A DNA stretch of 64,000 nt from a virus (lineage: Duplodnaviria > Caudoviricetes). Shown here piece after piece: positions 19,982-26,935 of this stretch. How positions within the stretch are numbered: position 1 is the first letter of the stretch; every line of letters begins with the position of its first letter. The notes under the pieces are model-generated. The model saw nothing but the letters and a program-made list of their open reading frames with translations, was not told the DNA's origin and ran no database searches. Made by a program: the position numbers and the translations under genes. The stretch is taken from positions 29,822-93,821 of the IMG/VR virus record IMGVR_UViG_3300010348_001730. One strand, given 5' to 3'.

Positions 19982-20770
19982 TCATAAATTGGTTTTTAAA
20001 ATATCTTTTAAAATATTAAAATTAGAAGAATACTTATCATTTTTATGATAATTATTCAGGACGCCTAAATGAAAAAGAGTTTCTTGGAAAGATTTACTTT
20101 GATAAGTTATAAAACTTACAAATTCTTCCACATCTGCTCTTAAAATATATTTTACAACTCGAATGTTGAAAATAAATTTTTCATTACGAATAATATCATT
20201 AACAGTTCTAAGATTATAAACTGCTCGATGATTTAAATCATGTTCGATACTTGGTATATTACCAGTATACTCAGCAAGATAGGTAAAAATAACGTCATTT
20301 TGAATTTTTTCTCTTTCAAGAATTTCTTTAATTCGCATTTCATGACTGCCTGTTATTTTAATATCATCTACAAAGACAAGAATTTCTCCTTCACGAATAC
20401 ATGATTTATCAAGATACATCATGTCTGATGAAATAGCAGCAATACGATCTTCTTTATTCATCAATCCATAATCGTCATCATAAGAATACTCTCTAAAAAT
20501 TTTAGATTGTTTAATTATGATATTTTTTTGAATAAATTGATTTGCTAAAGATGAAAGTAAATAATCTTTTAAAGCATTACTTGCTGCGGGAACATTGTTG
20601 TAAGGTGCTGCATAAAAAACTAATGTAGAACCTTCTTGAAAATCACAAACTTGAGCTAATTGTTGACCAAATTTTCTAGCTTGTGTTTTACTACCATGTT
20701 TGAATTTACTGTAGTCTTGATAAAAGTCTTCAGTAAAACTATCTGATTTAATTAAACTTATTGTCTGCAT
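19982..20770 (-). CDS. Phosphoribosyltransferase-like protein (Ter-cluster associated)
   Basis: PRPP-binding VFVDDIKITGSHE; YSKFKHGS. Confidence 0.75.
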   Translation of the reverse strand: MQTISLIKSDSFTEDFYQDYSKFKHGSKTQARKFGQQLAQVCDFQEGSTLVFYAAPYNNVPAASNALKDYLLSSLANQFIQKNIIIKQSKIFREYSYDDDYGLMNKEDRIAAISSDMMYLDKSCIREGEILVFVDDIKITGSHEMRIKEILEREKIQNDVIFTYLAEYTGNIPSIEHDLNHRAVYNLRTVNDIIRNEKFIFNIRVVKYILRADVEEFVSFITYQSKSFQETLFHLGVLNNYHKNDKYSSNFNILKDILKTNL

Positions 20771-21396
20771 CTTTCTGAAATAATGTGATAAGCATCTTTA
20801 ATTGTTCTGGAATTACTATTAATAATTATTGGTTCAGATCCAGCTCTTTTAGCACCTAAATAATCAGTATTATGATTATCACCAATATGATAATGACTTT
20901 TACTATACATTTCTTTATTAGGTTTACTAACCAAAAGATCACTACTAAAATTAAAATTCGTAAAATAATTAAAAATACCTAAATTATCAATTATTGTAAA
21001 TAATGTTTTAGCTTCAAGTAATAATGTATTACTACTTAATATTAAAAGATGATTTTCTGATAATAAACGGAGATATTTAATCGTATCTTCACTATAAAGT
21101 AATGGTGGATATTTAATAGCTAAATCTTGATAAGCTCTGTAAAACTCAATAGTTTTTAATAAATTTGGATCTGAAGGACTGAAATAACTATTTAATAATT
21201 TAATAATTAATTCTTTTGAAGGTTGCCAACCAGTTCTTTCAATAATACAATCAAGATTGTTTTTGATAGTTTTAAAATTGTGATTACTAAGCATTTCACT
21301 ACAAGAAAAAAACTCTTTTGTAAGTTCTGTTTTCTTTAAATGAAATAATGGAGAACTCTTAATAAGAGTTCCCCATAAATCTATACTAATATTCAT
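20758..21396 (-). CDS. HAD-family hydrolase
   Basis: DLWGTL, LSSN, KP, HIGDNHNTDYLGA. Confidence 0.85.
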   Translation of the reverse strand: MNISIDLWGTLIKSSPLFHLKKTELTKEFFSCSEMLSNHNFKTIKNNLDCIIERTGWQPSKELIIKLLNSYFSPSDPNLLKTIEFYRAYQDLAIKYPPLLYSEDTIKYLRLLSENHLLILSSNTLLLEAKTLFTIIDNLGIFNYFTNFNFSSDLLVSKPNKEMYSKSHYHIGDNHNTDYLGAKRAGSEPIIINSNSRTIKDAYHIISERCRQ

Positions 21397-21410
21397 TTAG
21401 ACTTTTAATT

Positions 21411-21515
21411 TTATGACCAATTAATAGTCTTAACCCAGGCTACAATTTTAGCTCCCCAACCAAGGAAAGTTTCTAAAACCATACCTATGACAATACTGAT
21501 AATAGTTGATAGCAT
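21411..21515 (-). CDS. Small membrane peptide (34 aa, not in ORF track)
   Basis: MLSTIISIVIGMVLETFLGWGAKIVAWVKTINWS; start overlaps the vWA stop. Confidence 0.45.
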   Translation of the reverse strand: MLSTIISIVIGMVLETFLGWGAKIVAWVKTINWS

Positions 21516-22231
21516 TATTTAATAAGGTTTAAATTTCTTGCTTGAGCAACCCATCCAGGAAACTCATTCATCAATGACGGATAGAGTTGAGAGTCTGGGA
21601 AATTCTTAATATCTGAGATACTAAAGAAATTCGCATTATCAATTTTTCTACCTTTTAGATCATCAAGTTTTTGTAAAAAACTAAATGATTCTCTTCCAAT
21701 ACCTACAAATTGTATGAAAAAGCCTTGTTCAGACATACTTCTTACAATATCTTCAGTTTCTGATCTATCAAAATTATCACCATCAGTGATAAAAATGATA
21801 TATACAGGATCTTTCATTTTACCAGGAGTACCGCCAAGACCAAGGAATGAACCTTGTTTTTTAGGTGCAAAATCACGTTGAATTTCTCTCAACACTGGAG
21901 CATAATTAGTACCACCCATAGAGTATTTACCAATTACTTTATTTTGAATGTAGCCATCCAAATTTTTCAAAGTGATGTTTTCAGGTAATTTAACTGAGCC
22001 GTTTTCAAACAAATAGAAATCAACTTCTCCATTGTCATCAAAAGCTAAACCAAGTGGTAAAATTCTTTCTACGGTATCTTGTACAGTACCGTTTGCATAA
22101 AGACTTCCCATTGAACCAGAGTAGTCCAGAGCCAGTACAACTTGAGCTTTTTGAGAACCTAATCCCATATCTTTTTTCAAGTTAAGTACTGACTCTTTTC
22201 TTTCTCTAAGCTTTACTAAATCTAACGCCAT
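21515..22231 (-). CDS. vWA domain protein (TerF-associated type)
   Basis: MIDAS DYSGSM, FDDNG, GGTNYAP, FITDG, QFVGIG, DNANFF. Confidence 0.85.
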   Translation of the reverse strand: MALDLVKLRERKESVLNLKKDMGLGSQKAQVVLALDYSGSMGSLYANGTVQDTVERILPLGLAFDDNGEVDFYLFENGSVKLPENITLKNLDGYIQNKVIGKYSMGGTNYAPVLREIQRDFAPKKQGSFLGLGGTPGKMKDPVYIIFITDGDNFDRSETEDIVRSMSEQGFFIQFVGIGRESFSFLQKLDDLKGRKIDNANFFSISDIKNFPDSQLYPSLMNEFPGWVAQARNLNLIK

Positions 22232-22232
22232 T

Positions 22233-22871
22233 TTATTGATGTTGAGATAATAAAGCGTTTAAATCTCCTGTAAATCCTTGACCTAAAGCACGAACTTTTA
22301 GATCTTCATTGTTCCAGTAGATTTCACCAACAATTACACCTGATTCAATTGAGAAATCCTCTTTCAAATCATAGCGAATATGTTCTTTACCATCAGAACC
22401 TTTGATGCTGCAATAAGCTCCATCAACCATTCCCATAGCTTGTTTTCTCTTATCTGCTTCGTAAATATTTACGGCAATAAGAATTTTCTTGTCTTTTGGT
22501 AATAGAGAAGAATTGATGAATAAAGTTTCATCATCTCCATCACCTTGGCCGGTACGATTGTCTTTAGTAATTACAACAGGAGCATTTGCTAAAATACTCT
22601 TAGCTGTGGCCACCACATCTGTTGAAGAAGCATACGCGACATCAGAAGAGGTTCCTTTACCATCAACATTACCATAGAAAAAGAAATTTGCTTCTGTAGC
22701 ACCTTTTCCATCACTGGCATTAACAATAAGACCAACAACATCAAGATCATAATCATCTTTGACACTGCTGTCATTTTTAACATTCCAACCTAAACCAACT
22801 TGAAGTTCATTTAAGTTTAGATCAGCTTTCTCTAACTTGAGATTCTGACCTTTTTGAAGTGATAGTGACAT
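22233..22871 (-). CDS. terD: TerD-family stress protein
   Basis: SLQKGQ, GLGW, DLD, DNRTGQGDGDDE, GEIY, ALGQG. Confidence 0.88.
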   Translation of the reverse strand: MSLSLQKGQNLKLEKADLNLNELQVGLGWNVKNDSSVKDDYDLDVVGLIVNASDGKGATEANFFFYGNVDGKGTSSDVAYASSTDVVATAKSILANAPVVITKDNRTGQGDGDDETLFINSSLLPKDKKILIAVNIYEADKRKQAMGMVDGAYCSIKGSDGKEHIRYDLKEDFSIESGVIVGEIYWNNEDLKVRALGQGFTGDLNALLSQHQ

Positions 22872-22891
22872 ATAAAAAATTTAAAAATTTA

Positions 22892-23617
22892 CTAATTGTT
22901 TTTCTTACCAAACATGATAGGAAATAGGAATACAGTCAATGTAATAGCACTAAATATTAAATCAGTGTTATGTCCATTAAGAATTGCGTGAATTTTTGTT
23001 TCTGGAAAGAAATCAAATATTCCTGCTAAAGCCATTTTAAGACCTAATAGTAATATTACGTAAAATACACTTAATTCTAATGAAGGATATTTATTAAGTA
23101 TTGATGAAAAATATTGTGCAACAAATCTCATAGCTAATATACCTAATGCTACAGCACTACATACAATCCAGAAATTATTACTTAGACTGACAACTGCTAC
23201 CAGATTATCAATACTAAATACAATATCTAAAAATTCCACCATTACTACTGTAGTCCAGAATTTATTTAAACCTATCCAATTACATAATTTTTGTAACCAA
23301 CCTGGTTCTTTTCCTTCTTCAACACTATCAGGTTCTACTGTTAAATGTGTGTAAAACAAATGACATAAATACAATCCACCTGCAATTTTAAACCACGCTC
23401 CTACAGAAGGATTATAAATAATCCAACTTACAAAAGCTAAAGATAATCCTCTAAAAAGATAAGCTCCAATAATACCATATGTCATGGCATGTTTTCTTTG
23501 TTTCTCATCTTTTAAATTTTTGTTAACAATAACTGCAATAACGCTCGCATTATCAACACTAAGTATAACTTCAATCAATAAGATATTAAGAAATACTAAA
23601 ATACTTGTTGTAATCAT
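22892..23617 (-). CDS. terC: TerC-family membrane protein
   Basis: EVILSVDNA, GAYLFRG, DIVFSIDN, GILAMRF. Confidence 0.9.
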   Translation of the reverse strand: MITTSILVFLNILLIEVILSVDNASVIAVIVNKNLKDEKQRKHAMTYGIIGAYLFRGLSLAFVSWIIYNPSVGAWFKIAGGLYLCHLFYTHLTVEPDSVEEGKEPGWLQKLCNWIGLNKFWTTVVMVEFLDIVFSIDNLVAVVSLSNNFWIVCSAVALGILAMRFVAQYFSSILNKYPSLELSVFYVILLLGLKMALAGIFDFFPETKIHAILNGHNTDLIFSAITLTVFLFPIMFGKKNN

Positions 23618-25342: not shown

Positions 25343-25372
25343 TTTTGTTTTTATGAGGAATATCCTCTTTAG

Positions 25373-25729
25373 TGGAGACGGGGAGAGTCGAACTCCCGTC
25401 ATACTAATTTTTCAATAAAATAAATTTACAGCTTTTAGGGTCAAAAGTTTTTGACTACCACCACTTCATTTTATGGTTGAAGAACCTCGATAGCAATTTT
25501 ATTAATTGTCAATTTCCTATTTAAGCTTAGGCAGCTACTAACATTGGTGCAACATAAGTTCCTTTACCAATAACAGTTTCGCTATTAAGAATATTATGAA
25601 CTACTTTCATGTTAGCTTTTACTTGGTTGTTTTCTACGTTTCCGTTTATTGAATTTCACCTTAGTTTACAGTTATCTCTCTGGCTGTTTATTTTACTTAC
25701 TAGATTCGCATTCAAATCCATTCGTCCCC
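25373..25729 (-). ncRNA. ssrA: tmRNA
   Basis: GGGGACG/CGTCTCC acceptor with G3-U70, T arm GGGAGTTCGACTCTCC, internal tag ORF ending LVAA-stop (25643-25527). Confidence 0.93.
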
Positions 25730-25842
25730 TTTCGATTTTTTATTATTTTTCAATTTTTTAATAAATCTAAAAGATTCAATAATTGTTAAAAAAATACACC
25801 AAAAAACAAGAAATATTATTGAAAAATATATTTTATTCATAG

Positions 25843-26935
25843 TCAGATTAATTTTAATAATTCAAATTTCAGTTTTGATTTTTTATTGTTGCTGTAATTA
25901 ATCTTTTCAACTTACATTTTTTTTTCGAGGACTAGTTGCTGACCAATTCGCATAGTTAAATTCGATTCGAACGAATATACACCAGTTTTAATCTAAAATT
26001 GCTGTTAGTAAGTTTGTCAGATAACTCCGATATTCCACACCAAGTGCCTCGGCTATAGGGCTAGGGAATCGAACCCATTTCGTCTCTTGTGACAAAAAAG
26101 TGATAGAGTGAAATTTGCTGTTTGTTATCTTATCAGTAGTGCTTTTTTTGAAGTAATCGGATTTGCAGTCTGAGTTTCATAAAAAATTTGCTGTGACACT
26201 ACTTTTCAATTTCCATTTTAACGAATACAAATTAAAAGTTTGTTGTTTATAAATTTGCTGTTAGGAAATTTATCAGCTTTCATTTTTTGACAACCAGTCT
26301 TCAAGATAGGAATCGAACCTCTCTAGAGCATAATGGAGCTTAAATGTAATTTGCTGTTAGAAAGCTTTTCAGATCATATAATAATACGTGCTCTAACCAA
26401 CTGAGCTAAAGATAAGACATTCTTATCCTCTCAGACTCGAACTGAGGACCACGAGGTTGACAGCCTATTTATAAATTGCAGTAAATGATCTTGTCAGAAT
26501 GTATTTTACGTTGTGTTACATTACACCATGTTGAACGAATGTTCTCACTGGATTTTTACCAGAACCACGGCACCAAAAGCTTTTAAATTGCTGTTGACAT
26601 TCTTATCAGGATACATCTGGTTTTTCAAAGTATAGAAAGTTTTGAATTGCTGTAAATATCCTTATCCTCCTAGTTTCCTAGGGGATTAAATGAATGAGTT
26701 TTCATTATGTTTACAATCAGACATTTAGTATTGAACAGGTGTAGTTTCAATATCTGAAGTTATTAAATAATGTTTCTCATTTTCGTAGCGTGTCTAATTT
26801 TTAGTATTTAGATTTGCTGTTTCTACACCTAAATATCAGCTTGTTATAGCTGTATTGTTAGGGGTGCTCACTTGCAGGCTGTGAGTTAGTCTTAATATAG
26901 GTAAGATTTATAATTGTGAGTTTGCAGTTCATAAC
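25843..26935 (-). ncRNA. Tandem array of ~10-11 Y-RNA-like cassettes (stem-ACWGCAA-cargo-stem) carrying tRNA fragments
   Basis: TTGCWGT on + strand at 25889, 25999, 26115, 26188, 26255, 26351, 26476, 26588, 26647, 26814, 26922, each enclosed by its own 5-8 bp inverted repeat. Confidence 0.8.

What the first reader, a model, noticed from the sequence alone, without database searches (positions are those of the whole stretch)
26369..26602. Circularly permuted tRNA bodies inside the cassettes
Seen: unit 26369-26490 reads anticodon hairpin, then CGT-GGTC, T arm (CTCAG-TTCGAGT-CTGAG), an acceptor stem closed by a loop (AGGATAAGA-ATG-TCTTATCTT), D arm (TAGCTCAGTTGGTTAGAGC) and ACG. The T arm precedes the D arm and there is no free CCA end. 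Unit 26494-26602 has the same order with a Gln-like D arm (TGGTGTAATGTAACAC) and a degenerate T loop. Units 25907-26013 and 26273-26365 keep TTCGAAT/TTCGATT T arms with shortened acceptors. Established: this T-before-D topology is that of YrlA tRNA mimics. Inference: several independent tRNA captures, some retaining an extra anticodon hairpin 5' of the body. A standard tRNA scanner would likely miss them.
Basis: partly seen in the sequence, partly recalled or inferred. Interest (0 to 1): 0.8.

Follow-up and report, generated by a model that had tools for sequence, protein, structure and literature searches.

The report
Phage Y-like RNAs displaying permuted tRNAs
Next to a gene for a Ro60-shaped RNA-binding protein, this phage encodes ten small RNAs that share one "handle"; at least one carries a whole tRNA rewired so that it cannot be charged, which makes it a probable tRNA decoy or adaptor of a kind not yet catalogued.

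Summary
On the minus strand, unit 26491-26371 reads anticodon hairpin, variable loop, T arm, hairpin-closed acceptor, D arm. tRNA scanners miss it in native order. Re-permuted in silico, ARAGORN calls it a perfect cloverleaf tRNA-Asp(GUC). Unit 26603-26496 has the same order but is degenerate (Gln UUG-type loop, decayed T loop). Unit 26014-25909 keeps T and D arms with no acceptor. Units 26366-26275 and 26130-26019 keep only a T arm.

These bodies are cargo inside a ten-unit tandem array. Each unit is a 7-8 bp terminal stem, then AC(A/U)GCAA, then variable cargo. The array lies directly downstream of a DUF7788/DUF2828 gene whose predicted fold is Ro60 (TROVE-like ring plus vWA).

The handle follows this gene in 67 of 80 related viral loci. 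It also appears beside 24%-identical homologues in Enterococcus, Bacillus, Fusobacterium and Felix O1 phages. Stems covary strongly.

The RNAs work like YrlA Y RNAs but fail YrlA membership: 28 bits against a cut-off of 69, no CGAA motif, and a partner that is Ro60-like by fold only.

"Independent tRNA captures" is unproven. The extra anticodon hairpin is better read as the tRNA's own anticodon arm, nicked in its stem.

Earlier runs of this scan found the same system on other DNA. I found no paper describing these RNAs.

The parts
26971..28650 (-). Gene for a 559-aa Ro60-like protein (N-terminal helical ring plus C-terminal vWA); the presumed protein partner of the RNAs
   Evidence: Pfam DUF7788 at 39.2 bits (cut-off 27.1) and a weak DUF2828 match. 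PHROG 850 'RNA-binding protein', 7e-33. AF2 model pLDDT 82. Top Foldseek PDB hits are all Ro60/TROVE over the full length: 2i91, 9kop, 1yvp, 9l5y, 2nvo, E 1e-7 to 4e-5.
25845..26830 (-). Tandem array of ten stem-closed small-RNA cassettes. U0 26830-26737; U1 26663-26607; U2 26603-26496; U3 26491-26371; U4 26366-26275; U5 26270-26208; U6 26203-26135; U7 26130-26019; U8 26014-25909; U9 25904-25845. From U1 on they are separated by 4-nt GAYA/GAAA spacers.
   Evidence: ACAGCAAWTT occurs 6 times in the window, all here, against 0.67 expected. No minus-strand terminator-like site lies between the gene and the array.
26371..26491 (-). Cassette U3: handle (stem 26491-26485 / 26377-26371; ACUGCAA 26482-26476) carrying a complete circularly permuted tRNA-Asp(GUC)-like cloverleaf. 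Anticodon hairpin 26466-26454; junction CG 26453-26452 with CG 26388-26387; T arm 26446-26430; closed acceptor 26429-26409; D arm 26406-26390.
   Evidence: One search gives the ARAGORN cloverleaf after permutation. One search scores it 56 bits with my model R1, which was built partly from it.
26496..26603 (-). Cassette U2: handle plus a degenerate permuted tRNA-like body. GC-UUUUGGU-GC hairpin 26580-26570 (Gln UUG-type loop); CGU 26569-26567; T-like arm with decayed loop UAAAAAU 26562-26548; short acceptor-like hairpin 26547-26529; D arm GUGU-AAUGUA-ACAC 26526-26513; ACG 26511-26509.
   Evidence: 5.6 bits, E 0.11; family alignment; the nearest relative, L043:4609, has loop UUCUGGU (Gln CUG); no ARAGORN call.
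25909..26014 (-). Cassette U8: T arm AUUCG-UUCGAAU-CGAAU (25976-25960) followed after 7 nt by a Leu-type D-arm-like segment UGCGAAUUGGUCAGCA. The acceptor hairpin is absent.
   Evidence: 13.8 bits, E 4e-4, acceptor positions deleted. Relative L016:6483-6643 keeps the acceptor hairpin.
26275..26366 (-). Cassette U4: handle plus an isolated short T arm AGG-UUCGAUU-CCU (26320-26308). No D arm was detected.
   Evidence: 11 bits, local match to the T arm only.
26019..26130 (-). Cassette U7: handle plus T arm GGG-UUCGAUU-CCC (26076-26064), followed by a conserved element CCGAGGCACUUGGUGUGGAAUAUCGG
   Evidence: The same cargo recurs in L026, L126, L081, L044 and L045.

Best explanation
The flagged stretch holds two adjacent genes, U3 and U2, of a ten-member co-directional array of small non-coding RNAs. 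They are the Y-RNA-like partners of the Ro60-shaped DUF7788/DUF2828 protein encoded immediately upstream.

Each RNA has the same 'handle': a 7-8 bp stem joining its 5' and 3' ends, followed on the 5' side by single-stranded AC(A/U)GCAA. By inference this handle is the protein-binding site, playing the part of the Y-RNA stem and CGAA motif. On the handle sits exchangeable cargo.

In U3 the cargo is a whole tRNA-Asp(GUC)-like cloverleaf in circularly permuted order. The acceptor ends are sealed by two extra base pairs and an AUG loop, so there is no CCA end and no charging. The molecule is opened in the 5' strand of the anticodon stem, where two 9-nt A/U linkers tie it to the handle. U2 is a decayed Gln-type copy of the same design. 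U8, U4 and U7 keep only parts of it.

Inferred mechanism: the array is transcribed with the gene and cut at the GAYA spacers. The protein then binds the handles and presents uncharged tRNA look-alikes (elbow plus anticodon arm) to enzymes that recognise tRNA. Those may be host anticodon nucleases or tRNA-modifying enzymes (decoy role), or an RNase or repair enzyme tethered as in the Ro60-Y RNA-PNPase complex.

Shown here: sequence architecture, covariation, gene linkage and protein fold. Inferred: binding, processing and biological role.
For: Handle and array:
- define the units.
- In 80 related viral loci ACAGCAA occurs 311 times on the gene strand and 34 times on the other; 67 of 80 loci carry cassettes.
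- Under a strict test (at least 7 Watson-Crick pairs, then GA), 135 of 310 motifs pass, against 6 of 310 with a displaced 5' strand and 0 of 34 on the opposite strand.
- In the handle stem all 7 pairs change on both sides; pairing is 100% against 66% shuffled and 33-40% slid.

Same handle beside distant homologues:
- Leptolyngbya phage Lbo-JY46.
- Enterococcus phiSHEF16, Bacillus Tsamsa and Fusobacterium Fnu1.
- Felix O1 ORF42: hhalign 97.8%, Pfam DUF7788 3e-43, and four ACAGCAA motifs in the gaps of its tRNA array.

tRNA mimicry:
- YrlA partial hits in the window and in five of seven other loci scanned, each inside a cassette.
- U3 gives a cloverleaf after permutation.
- 28 of 30 T/acceptor/D modules are called tRNA after permutation.
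- 15 of 16 pairs change on both sides; 98% paired against 61% shuffled.
- G-U pairs in these stems fit RNA from the gene strand.

Protein: Ro60 fold.

Function lead: Bas63 gp130 is described as a Ro60-like protein encoded just upstream of that phage's tRNA genes. It counters the Ppl defence (PMC11482910, read).
Against: - There is no expression, processing or binding data.
- The pairing percentages come from units that I selected for pairing. Their weight rests on the reverse-complement, shuffle and displacement controls.
- RNAfold does not favour the cloverleaf-like fold of U3: -20.6 against an MFE of -26.9 kcal/mol, with an anticodon-hairpin pair probability of 0.08.
- U2 is statistically marginal.
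- In the PhageMaP preprint gp130 alone, expressed without phage RNAs, restored T7 plaquing on Ppl. The protein's anti-defence activity may therefore not need these RNAs.
- I did not check the identity of Bas63 gp130 against the window's protein. I checked only its genus relative, Felix O1 ORF42.
- The phage genome has no RtcB, Rnl2-type ligase or CCA enzyme to suggest an RNA-repair context.
Confidence: 0.8

Rival explanations
1. These are true permuted tRNA genes, as in the red alga Cyanidioschyzon merolae. The handle would bring the nicked anticodon stem together, an RNA ligase would seal it, RNase P and RNase Z would open the acceptor loop, and a functional tRNA-Asp would result.
For: The re-permuted U3 is a flawless cloverleaf with U33, purine 37 and a canonical T loop. 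Many modules in relatives also give clean anticodon calls. The phage encodes only three ordinary tRNAs.
Against: - The acceptor is extended by 2 bp and closed by a 3-nt loop, with no recognisable discriminator or trailer. Acceptor loops are 7 nt or shorter in about half of the modules.
- Sister units with the same handle have a dead T loop (U2), no acceptor (U8) or no tRNA parts at all (U1, U5, U6, U9).
- The phage has no RtcB or Rnl2 ligase and no CCA enzyme.
- Bacteria lack the splicing-endonuclease (BHB) route used in C. merolae; this rests on established knowledge.
Confidence: 0.05
2. The units are decaying remnants of tandem tRNA genes: the T arm and 3' acceptor of one gene next to the 5' acceptor and D arm of the next, with no function of their own.
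For: Chen et al. 2014 warn that dimeric tRNAs can score as YrlA. The array sits next to tmRNA and tRNA genes. U2, U4, U7 and U8 look degenerate.
Against: - The two acceptor strands pair with each other and covary across 25 modules.
- No 5' half precedes the units and no 3' half follows them.
- Each unit is enclosed by its own covarying stem plus an invariant motif.
- The design is kept next to the same gene in phages of at least four host phyla.
Confidence: 0.04
3. The RNAs are real structured RNAs, but the handle is read by something other than the adjacent Ro60-like protein. That could be a host RNase acting at a processing signal, or another phage or host RNA-binding protein; the linkage to the gene would then reflect only a shared operon.
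For: Binding is untested. Units are packed with conserved 4-nt spacers, as processing sites would be. gp130 works without phage RNAs in T7. Handle units also lie between tRNA genes, away from the gene, in Tsamsa and Felix O1.
Against: The handle tracks this gene family across about 24% protein identity and unrelated phage backbones. The Ro60 fold has a well-known habit of being encoded beside its Y RNAs (PMC4201824, PMC12135203). A handle-like stem with an ACAGCAA-like motif also spans the gene's own start codon in many relatives, which suggests the protein reads it.
Confidence: 0.1

Closest known systems
YrlA-type bacterial and phage Y RNAs with Ro60/Rsr (Rfam RF02553; Chen et al. 2014, PMC4201824)
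   Same: The ends are joined by a stem. A tRNA-like domain runs T arm, closed acceptor-like hairpin, D arm. The RNA is encoded on the same strand within 4 kb of a Ro60-fold protein gene, and several RNAs can accompany one gene.
   Different: The score is 28 bits against a gathering score of 69, and only the tRNA-like core matches. There is no GNCGAAN0-1G/CGAA Ro-binding motif; instead there is a short stem plus single-stranded AC(A/U)GCAA. The partner is DUF7788/DUF2828, not Pfam TROVE. U3 also displays a complete anticodon arm, which YrlA replaces with the Ro-binding stem. The array has ten units with swappable cargo.
Thermus phage phiLo Ro60 with Yrl1/Yrl2 (PMC12135203; PDB 9KOP, 9L5Y)
   Same: A phage-encoded Ro60-fold protein with adjacent small-RNA partners. 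It is a structural match to the window's protein (TM 0.50-0.63).
   Different: The phiLo RNAs were defined by CGAA motifs and are not described there as tRNA-like. Structure-based sequence identity is about 12-13%.
Bas63 (Felix O1-type coliphage) gp130, anti-Ppl counter-defence protein (PhageMaP preprint, PMC11482910)
   Same: A Ro60-like protein encoded at the head of a phage tRNA array. Its genus relative Felix O1 ORF42 belongs to the same family as the window's protein and has ACAGCAA units in the gaps of its tRNA array.
   Different: The preprint only guesses that some 'tRNA genes' might be Y RNAs, and it does not describe the handle RNAs. The gp130 sequence itself was not compared here. 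Direct tblastn from the window's protein listed no Felix O1-type phage among the 85 rows I could read.
Dictyostelid Class I RNAs (Rfam RF01414; Kjellin et al. 2021, PMC7919456)
   Same: They are 42-65 nt long. A short stem joins the ends, a conserved motif containing ACAGCAA lies directly 3' of the 5' stem strand, the interior is variable, and UG follows the 3' strand. Short cassettes hit RF01414 at 27-36 bits, always on the gene strand.
   Different: All hits fall below the gathering score of 41.5. Only 7 of the 11 motif positions are shared. Class I RNAs are eukaryotic, each gene has its own DUSE promoter, they are reported to bind an RRM protein, and they are stated to be unique to Dictyostelia. 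They carry no tRNA-like cargo.
Circularly permuted tRNA genes of Cyanidioschyzon merolae and other algae (recalled from memory, not looked up)
   Same: The 3' half of a tRNA is encoded upstream of the 5' half, with the acceptor ends joined by a short intervening loop.
   Different: The algal genes mature into functional tRNAs through a circular intermediate. Here the break lies within the anticodon stem and is tied to a conserved handle, sister units are non-functional as tRNAs, and there is no sign of a maturation route.

Membership tests
YrlA (RF02553) | Score at or above Rfam's gathering threshold (69 bits) over the whole model | tested here: not met
   28.1 bits, model positions 24-84 of 114 only. 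Relatives reach 26-36.5 bits.
YrlA (RF02553) | tRNA-like domain in the order T arm, closed acceptor-like stem-loop, D arm | tested here: met
   for U3. It is weak for U2.
YrlA (RF02553) | GNCGAAN0-1G motif near the 5' end, in the Ro-binding stem (PMC4201824) | tested here: not met
   Neither U2 nor U3 contains CGAA (reading). The conserved element is AC(A/U)GCAA next to a 7-8 bp stem.
YrlA (RF02553) | Encoded within 4 kb and on the same strand as a Ro60/TROVE orthologue | tested here: inconclusive
   The RNA is on the same strand, 0.4-0.6 kb downstream of the gene. The protein is Ro60-like by fold, but Pfam TROVE does not match at E <= 0.01, and phmmer finds no PDB chain.
YrlA (RF02553) | Bound by Ro60; carries tRNA-type modifications | not testable with these tools
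   This needs immunoprecipitation and modification mapping.
tRNA (RF00005 / ARAGORN) | Cloverleaf in native 5'-to-3' order with a free acceptor end | tested here: not met
   No tRNA call in 25840-26900. The acceptor is closed by a hairpin.
   U3 gives tRNA-Asp(gtc). U2 gives 0 calls out of 5204 permutations, so the test is met for U3 only.
Dictyostelid Class I RNA (RF01414) | Gathering score of 41.5 bits and the 11-nt motif | tested here: not met
   Best score in the window is 32.0 bits, for U1. Best among relatives is 35.8 bits. Only ACAGCAA is shared.
Dictyostelid Class I RNA (RF01414) | Short stem joining the 5' and 3' ends, with the motif adjacent to the 5' strand | tested here: met
DUF7788/DUF2828 Ro60-like proteins (partner protein) | Pfam DUF7788 above its cut-off; DUF2828 N-terminal region; Ro60-like ring plus vWA fold | tested here: met
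   DUF7788 scores 39.2 bits against a cut-off of 27.1. DUF2828 scores only 15.2 against 29. The nearest Atlas cluster (score 0.99) carries DUF2828 in 65% of its members. Fold.
Permuted tRNA genes (algal type) | Matures to a functional, chargeable tRNA | not testable with these tools
   Indirect evidence points against it: degenerate sister units, a very short acceptor loop, and no ligase or CCA enzyme in the phage.

The most novel reading that the evidence does not exclude
The handle RNAs and their DUF2828-type proteins form a second, undescribed Ro/Y-type ribonucleoprotein lineage, spread through phages and, according to earlier unchecked notes of this scan, bacteria. Its RNA signature (end-joining stem plus ACAGCAA) is homologous to the unexplained 'Class I' RNAs of social amoebae. 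In phages the scaffold is used to display panels of unchargeable, circularly permuted tRNAs as decoys or adaptors in the conflict over tRNAs.
Probability: 0.25. Interest if true: 0.9.

Novelty: new variant of a known kind. Interest (0 to 1): 0.75.

Why it matters
Ro60-Y RNA particles are known from animals, some bacteria and a few phages, and their function is still debated. This locus shows a sequence-divergent branch of the Ro60 fold with its own RNA signature and modular cargo. I found that signature in neither Rfam nor the papers I could search.

The cargo includes a complete tRNA that is topologically disabled for charging but still shows its anticodon arm and elbow. That gives a concrete, testable idea for how a phage might bait or recruit tRNA-directed enzymes. 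It also supplies candidate RNA partners for a protein family of which one apparent member (Bas63 gp130) is already reported as an anti-defence factor.

It also flags a class of RNA genes that annotation pipelines miss, and it offers a possible lead to the origin of Dictyostelium Class I RNAs.

Tried and rejected
- Rfam gathering scan: only tmRNA and three tRNAs; nothing in the array.
- phmmer of the protein against PDB sequences: no hit. The fold search was needed.
- PADLOC: no match.
- Promoter and terminator scans: uninformative in this AT-rich DNA.
It was too permissive, since chance stems are likely within 230 nt, so I replaced it with a strict test plus a displaced-strand control.
- ARAGORN on permuted U2, U4, U7 and U8: no calls.
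- The model R1 also picks up the 3' parts of the genuine tRNAs and tmRNA, so low scores outside cassettes mean little.
- I guessed accession MZ501111 for Bas63. It turned out to be Bas51, so I used Felix O1 instead.
- The idea that anticodons are limited to the split-box tRNAs favoured by anticodon nucleases is not supported. Calls include Met, Gly, Leu, Phe and Arg as well as Asp, Asn, His, Tyr, Glu, Gln and Lys.
- DNA-level readings (integron attC-like or transposon ends) are rejected. The reasons are strand bias, G-U pairs, unit sizes of 55-125 nt and the absence of any recombinase context.
Full report
**Where we are.** The window is part of a 93.8-kb IMG/VR virus record that is about 94% complete. 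Its DNA is AT-rich, about 30% GC. Everything relevant lies on the minus strand, in this order:
- a 559-aa ORF, 28650-26971
- about 1 kb without ORFs
- a phage tmRNA, 25729-25370
- tRNA-Arg and tRNA-Leu

**The observation.** Unit U3 (26491-26371) reads as follows:
- AGAUCAU, UU, ACUGCAA, then a 9-nt linker
- AGG-CUGUCAA-CCU, then CG, then UGGUC
- T arm CUCAG-UUCGAGU-CUGAG
- acceptor AGGAUAAGA-AUG-UCUUAUCUU, then UA
- D arm GCUC-AGUUGGUUA-GAGC, then A-CG
- a 9-nt linker, then AUGAUCU

ARAGORN and Rfam see no tRNA here, even at E <= 10. Rfam's YrlA model matches 26453-26387 at 28.1 bits (E 1.4e-3), using only its tRNA-like core, positions 24-84.

I cut U3 in the acceptor loop and joined the exit (..GAGC-A-CG) to the entry (AGG-CUGUCAA-CCU-CG..). 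ARAGORN then draws a flawless cloverleaf tRNA-Asp(gtc):
- a 7-bp acceptor stem
- a 4-bp D stem
- a 5-bp anticodon stem with U33 and A37
- the variable loop UGGUC
- a canonical T arm

In a blind sweep of 15,040 permutations the dominant call was Asp(gtc). The native sequence gave nothing.

The 'extra anticodon hairpin' is therefore the tRNA's own anticodon arm. The anticodon stem is nicked between positions 28 and 29, and the rest of the RNA attaches there. The phage has no ordinary tRNA-Asp; it has only Met, Leu and Arg plus tmRNA.

**The other units.**
- **U2 (26603-26496)** has the same order: GC-UUUUGGU-GC, CGU, GGUU, a T-like arm whose loop has decayed to UAAAAAU, a short acceptor-like hairpin, the D arm GUGU-AAUGUA-ACAC, then A-ACG. 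It is statistically weak. No ARAGORN call came from 5,204 permutations, and my module model gives 5.6 bits, E 0.11. Its tRNA-like reading rests on alignment to relatives that share the invariant skeleton ACAGCAA ... GC-[7 nt]-GC-CGU ... ACG-UAAAA. In those relatives the T arm and acceptor are intact and the permuted form is called Glu(UUC), Gln(UUG) or Arg(UCU). Its nearest relative has the loop UUCUGGU, also a Gln anticodon.
- **U8 (26014-25909)** keeps a good T arm and a Leu-type D-arm-like segment, with the acceptor deleted (13.8 bits, E 4e-4).

**What the units belong to.** The bodies are cargo inside a tandem array of ten cassettes, U0-U9, spanning 26830-25845. Each cassette is [A + 6-7 nt] + 1-2 nt + AC(A/U)GCAA + variable interior + the complementary 3' strand. 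From U1 on, 4-nt GAYA/GAAA spacers separate them.

The stems all differ in sequence. ACAGCAAWTT occurs six times in the 64-kb window, all within the array, against 0.67 expected. No minus-strand terminator-like site separates the ORF from the array, so co-transcription followed by processing is the simplest reading. This is an inference.

**The neighbouring protein.**
- Pfam gives DUF7788 above its cut-off and a weak DUF2828 match.
- PHROG 850 is 'RNA-binding protein'.
- An AlphaFold model built from 36 homologues has pLDDT 82 and pTM 0.84.
- Foldseek against the PDB returns Ro60 structures as the top eleven hits, aligned over about 510-590 columns. They include Xenopus and human Ro60, D. radiodurans Rsr and Thermus phage phiLo Ro60 (E 1.4e-7 to 3.9e-5, TM up to 0.63). 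vWA domains follow for the C-terminal part.

By sequence the protein is not a recognisable TROVE protein.

**Linkage across genomes.** The closest cultured relative is Leptolyngbya phage Lbo-JY46, at 48% identity. It has five cassettes of the same design starting 8 nt after its homologue's stop codon.

In 80 related viral loci (510 kb):
- ACAGCAA occurs 311 times on the gene strand and 34 times on the other.
- 67 of the 80 loci carry cassettes within 2.5 kb.
- Under a strict criterion (at least 7 contiguous Watson-Crick pairs followed by GA), 135 of 310 motifs are stem-closed. The controls give 6 of 310 when the 5' strand is displaced by 12 nt, and 0 of 34 on the opposite strand.
- On a MAFFT alignment of 43 short cassettes, all seven stem pairs show changes on both sides. 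Pairing is 100%, against 66% after shuffling and 33-40% when the partner is slid. The units were chosen by a pairing filter, so the controls carry the weight.

The handle also sits beside homologues that are only about 24% identical:
- Enterococcus phage phiSHEF16: three units, two of them with T arm, closed acceptor and D arm.
- Bacillus phage Tsamsa: three units.
- Fusobacterium phage Fnu1: one unit.
- Felix O1: ORF42 is a family member (hhalign 97.8%, E 7e-13; DUF7788 3e-43, DUF2828 1e-28). Four ACAGCAA motifs lie in the gaps of its tRNA array.

**How general is the permuted tRNA?** A strict structural search required a TTCRA-type loop, a 5-bp T stem, a 7-bp acceptor closed by a loop, a 2-nt link and a 4-bp D stem. 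It finds 30 of 290 distinct cassettes, and none among their reverse complements or shuffles.
- On an alignment of 25 modules, 15 of 16 pairs change on both sides. Pairing is 98%, against 61% shuffled and 40-52% slid.
- After permutation, 28 of the 30 are called tRNA by ARAGORN.
- The stable anticodon calls include Asp, Asn, His, Tyr, Glu, Lys, Met, Gly, Leu, Phe and Arg.
- The panel is thus broad and not confined to classic anticodon-nuclease targets.
- Other cargo types recur: a T arm abutting the 3' handle strand, a T arm plus a conserved CCGAGG...GGAAUAUCGG element (as in U7), one non-permuted tRNA-like body, and short units with a 5-bp stem and a 7-nt loop.

**Independent captures?** In favour, anticodon and D-arm type sometimes agree. 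For example, L010:5966 has Glu UUC with a Glu-type D arm. Against, modules with different anticodons share the same junction (CGU/ACG), linkers and handle register. That fits one ancestral module diversifying, or cargo exchange by recombination. I cannot decide this with the present data.

**Comparison with known systems.**
- **YrlA.** Functionally the closest. YrlA is a Y RNA whose ends form a stem and whose body mimics a tRNA in T-acceptor-D order, encoded beside Ro60. Membership fails on three tested features: the score, the GNCGAA motif and the partner's sequence family.
- **phiLo.** The phiLo Ro60/Yrl system is likewise CGAA-based.
- **PhageMaP.** The preprint shows that Bas63 gp130 is Ro60-like, is encoded just upstream of that phage's tRNA genes and counters the Ppl defence. 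It works even when moved to T7 without Bas63 RNAs. The authors only speculate that some tRNA genes might be Y RNAs.
- **Class I RNAs.** Short cassettes repeatedly hit the Dictyostelium Class I RNA model at 27-36 bits, below its threshold of 41.5. The two share an end-joining stem, ACAGCAA directly after the 5' strand, a variable interior and a trailing UG. Class I RNAs are reported as unique to Dictyostelia. Homology or convergence cannot be settled here.
- **Literature.** The searches I ran found no paper describing these RNAs or their link to DUF2828. A full-text search for DUF2828 returned five unrelated papers.

**Caveats.**
- There is no expression or binding evidence.
- RNAfold prefers another fold for the interior of U3: -26.9 against -20.6 kcal/mol for the cloverleaf-like structure. 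The handle and acceptor hairpin have pair probability 1.0. Ordinary tRNAs also often fail to fold as the MFE.
- The phage has no RtcB, Rnl2-type ligase or CCA enzyme. This argues against maturation into a working tRNA and gives no repair context.

**Earlier notes of this scan.** Searches show that the same handle/Ro60-like system was reported before on other genomes, and in parallel notes on this one. I used those notes only as leads. The PhageMaP paper and the Felix O1 family membership were checked here.

**Verdict.** The stretch is best described as Y-RNA-like tRNA mimics of an uncatalogued handle family, partnered with a DUF7788/DUF2828 Ro60-like protein. That makes it a new variant of a known kind.

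Noticed in passing
window 28652-28606 (minus strand); also L025, L030, L031, L040, L043, L059 and L101 at about 2499-2560: The start of the Ro60-like gene looks like a handle itself. AGAUGUUU (which contains the start codon) is followed by an ACAGCAA-like motif (GAAGCAA in the window), and CAUCU lies 36-69 nt downstream. Of 26 distinct relatives that start with AGATGTT, 25 have CATCT in that range, against 23 of 520 control windows. This could be an autoregulatory operator. All the distances are multiples of 3, so a coding constraint is not excluded.
   Followed up: partly
window 25370-25729 (minus strand): A phage-encoded tmRNA (Rfam 72 bits; tag ANMKVVHNILNSETVIGKGTYVAPMLVAA) lies directly after the cassette array. 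tmRNA hits occupy the same position in relatives L006 and L010.
   Followed up: no
window 19982-23617 (minus strand): A Ter-type stress gene set sits in the phage: TerC, TerD, a vWA-TerF-like protein, a HAD hydrolase and a ComF-like PRTase. It is co-directional with the RNA island.
   Followed up: no
window 26130-26019 (U7); L026:4423-4659, L126:2858-2967, L081:5008-5135, L044:4954-5079: A recurring cargo type: a T arm followed by the conserved element CCGAGGCACUUGGUGUGGAAUAUCGG. It is kept in at least six loci, and I do not know what it mimics.
   Followed up: partly
L017:2935-3050: One cassette encloses a tRNA-like body in normal, non-permuted order (Rfam tRNA 53 bits; ARAGORN Tyr gta). Position 33 of its anticodon loop is G instead of U. 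The handle can therefore also clamp an unpermuted tRNA.
   Followed up: partly
A4 rows such as L038:5243-5304, L036:5264-5325, L034:2138-2200 and L079:4677-4738: Many short cassettes carry a 5-bp stem (UUCAA/UUGAA) with a 7-nt loop of the form UUNNGGU. That is the same loop type as U2's Gln-like hairpin, i.e. an isolated anticodon-arm-like display.
   Followed up: partly
L006:3868-3955: A sub-threshold RAGATH-1 hammerhead match (49 bits against a gathering score of 56.3) lies just upstream of the Ro60-like gene in a relative.
   Followed up: no
L023:2300-2760 (Enterococcus phage phiSHEF16): Each of the three handle cassettes is preceded by a conserved element of about 45 nt (GGUUUUG..CAUAGUUCCAACCUAACAGGUAGCCGGAACAUA). 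It may be a promoter or processing structure specific to that clade.
   Followed up: no
L138:23881-24595 (Salmonella phage Felix O1): Four ACAGCAA motifs lie in unannotated gaps between the first tRNA genes, just downstream of the DUF2828/DUF7788 gene ORF42.
   Followed up: partly
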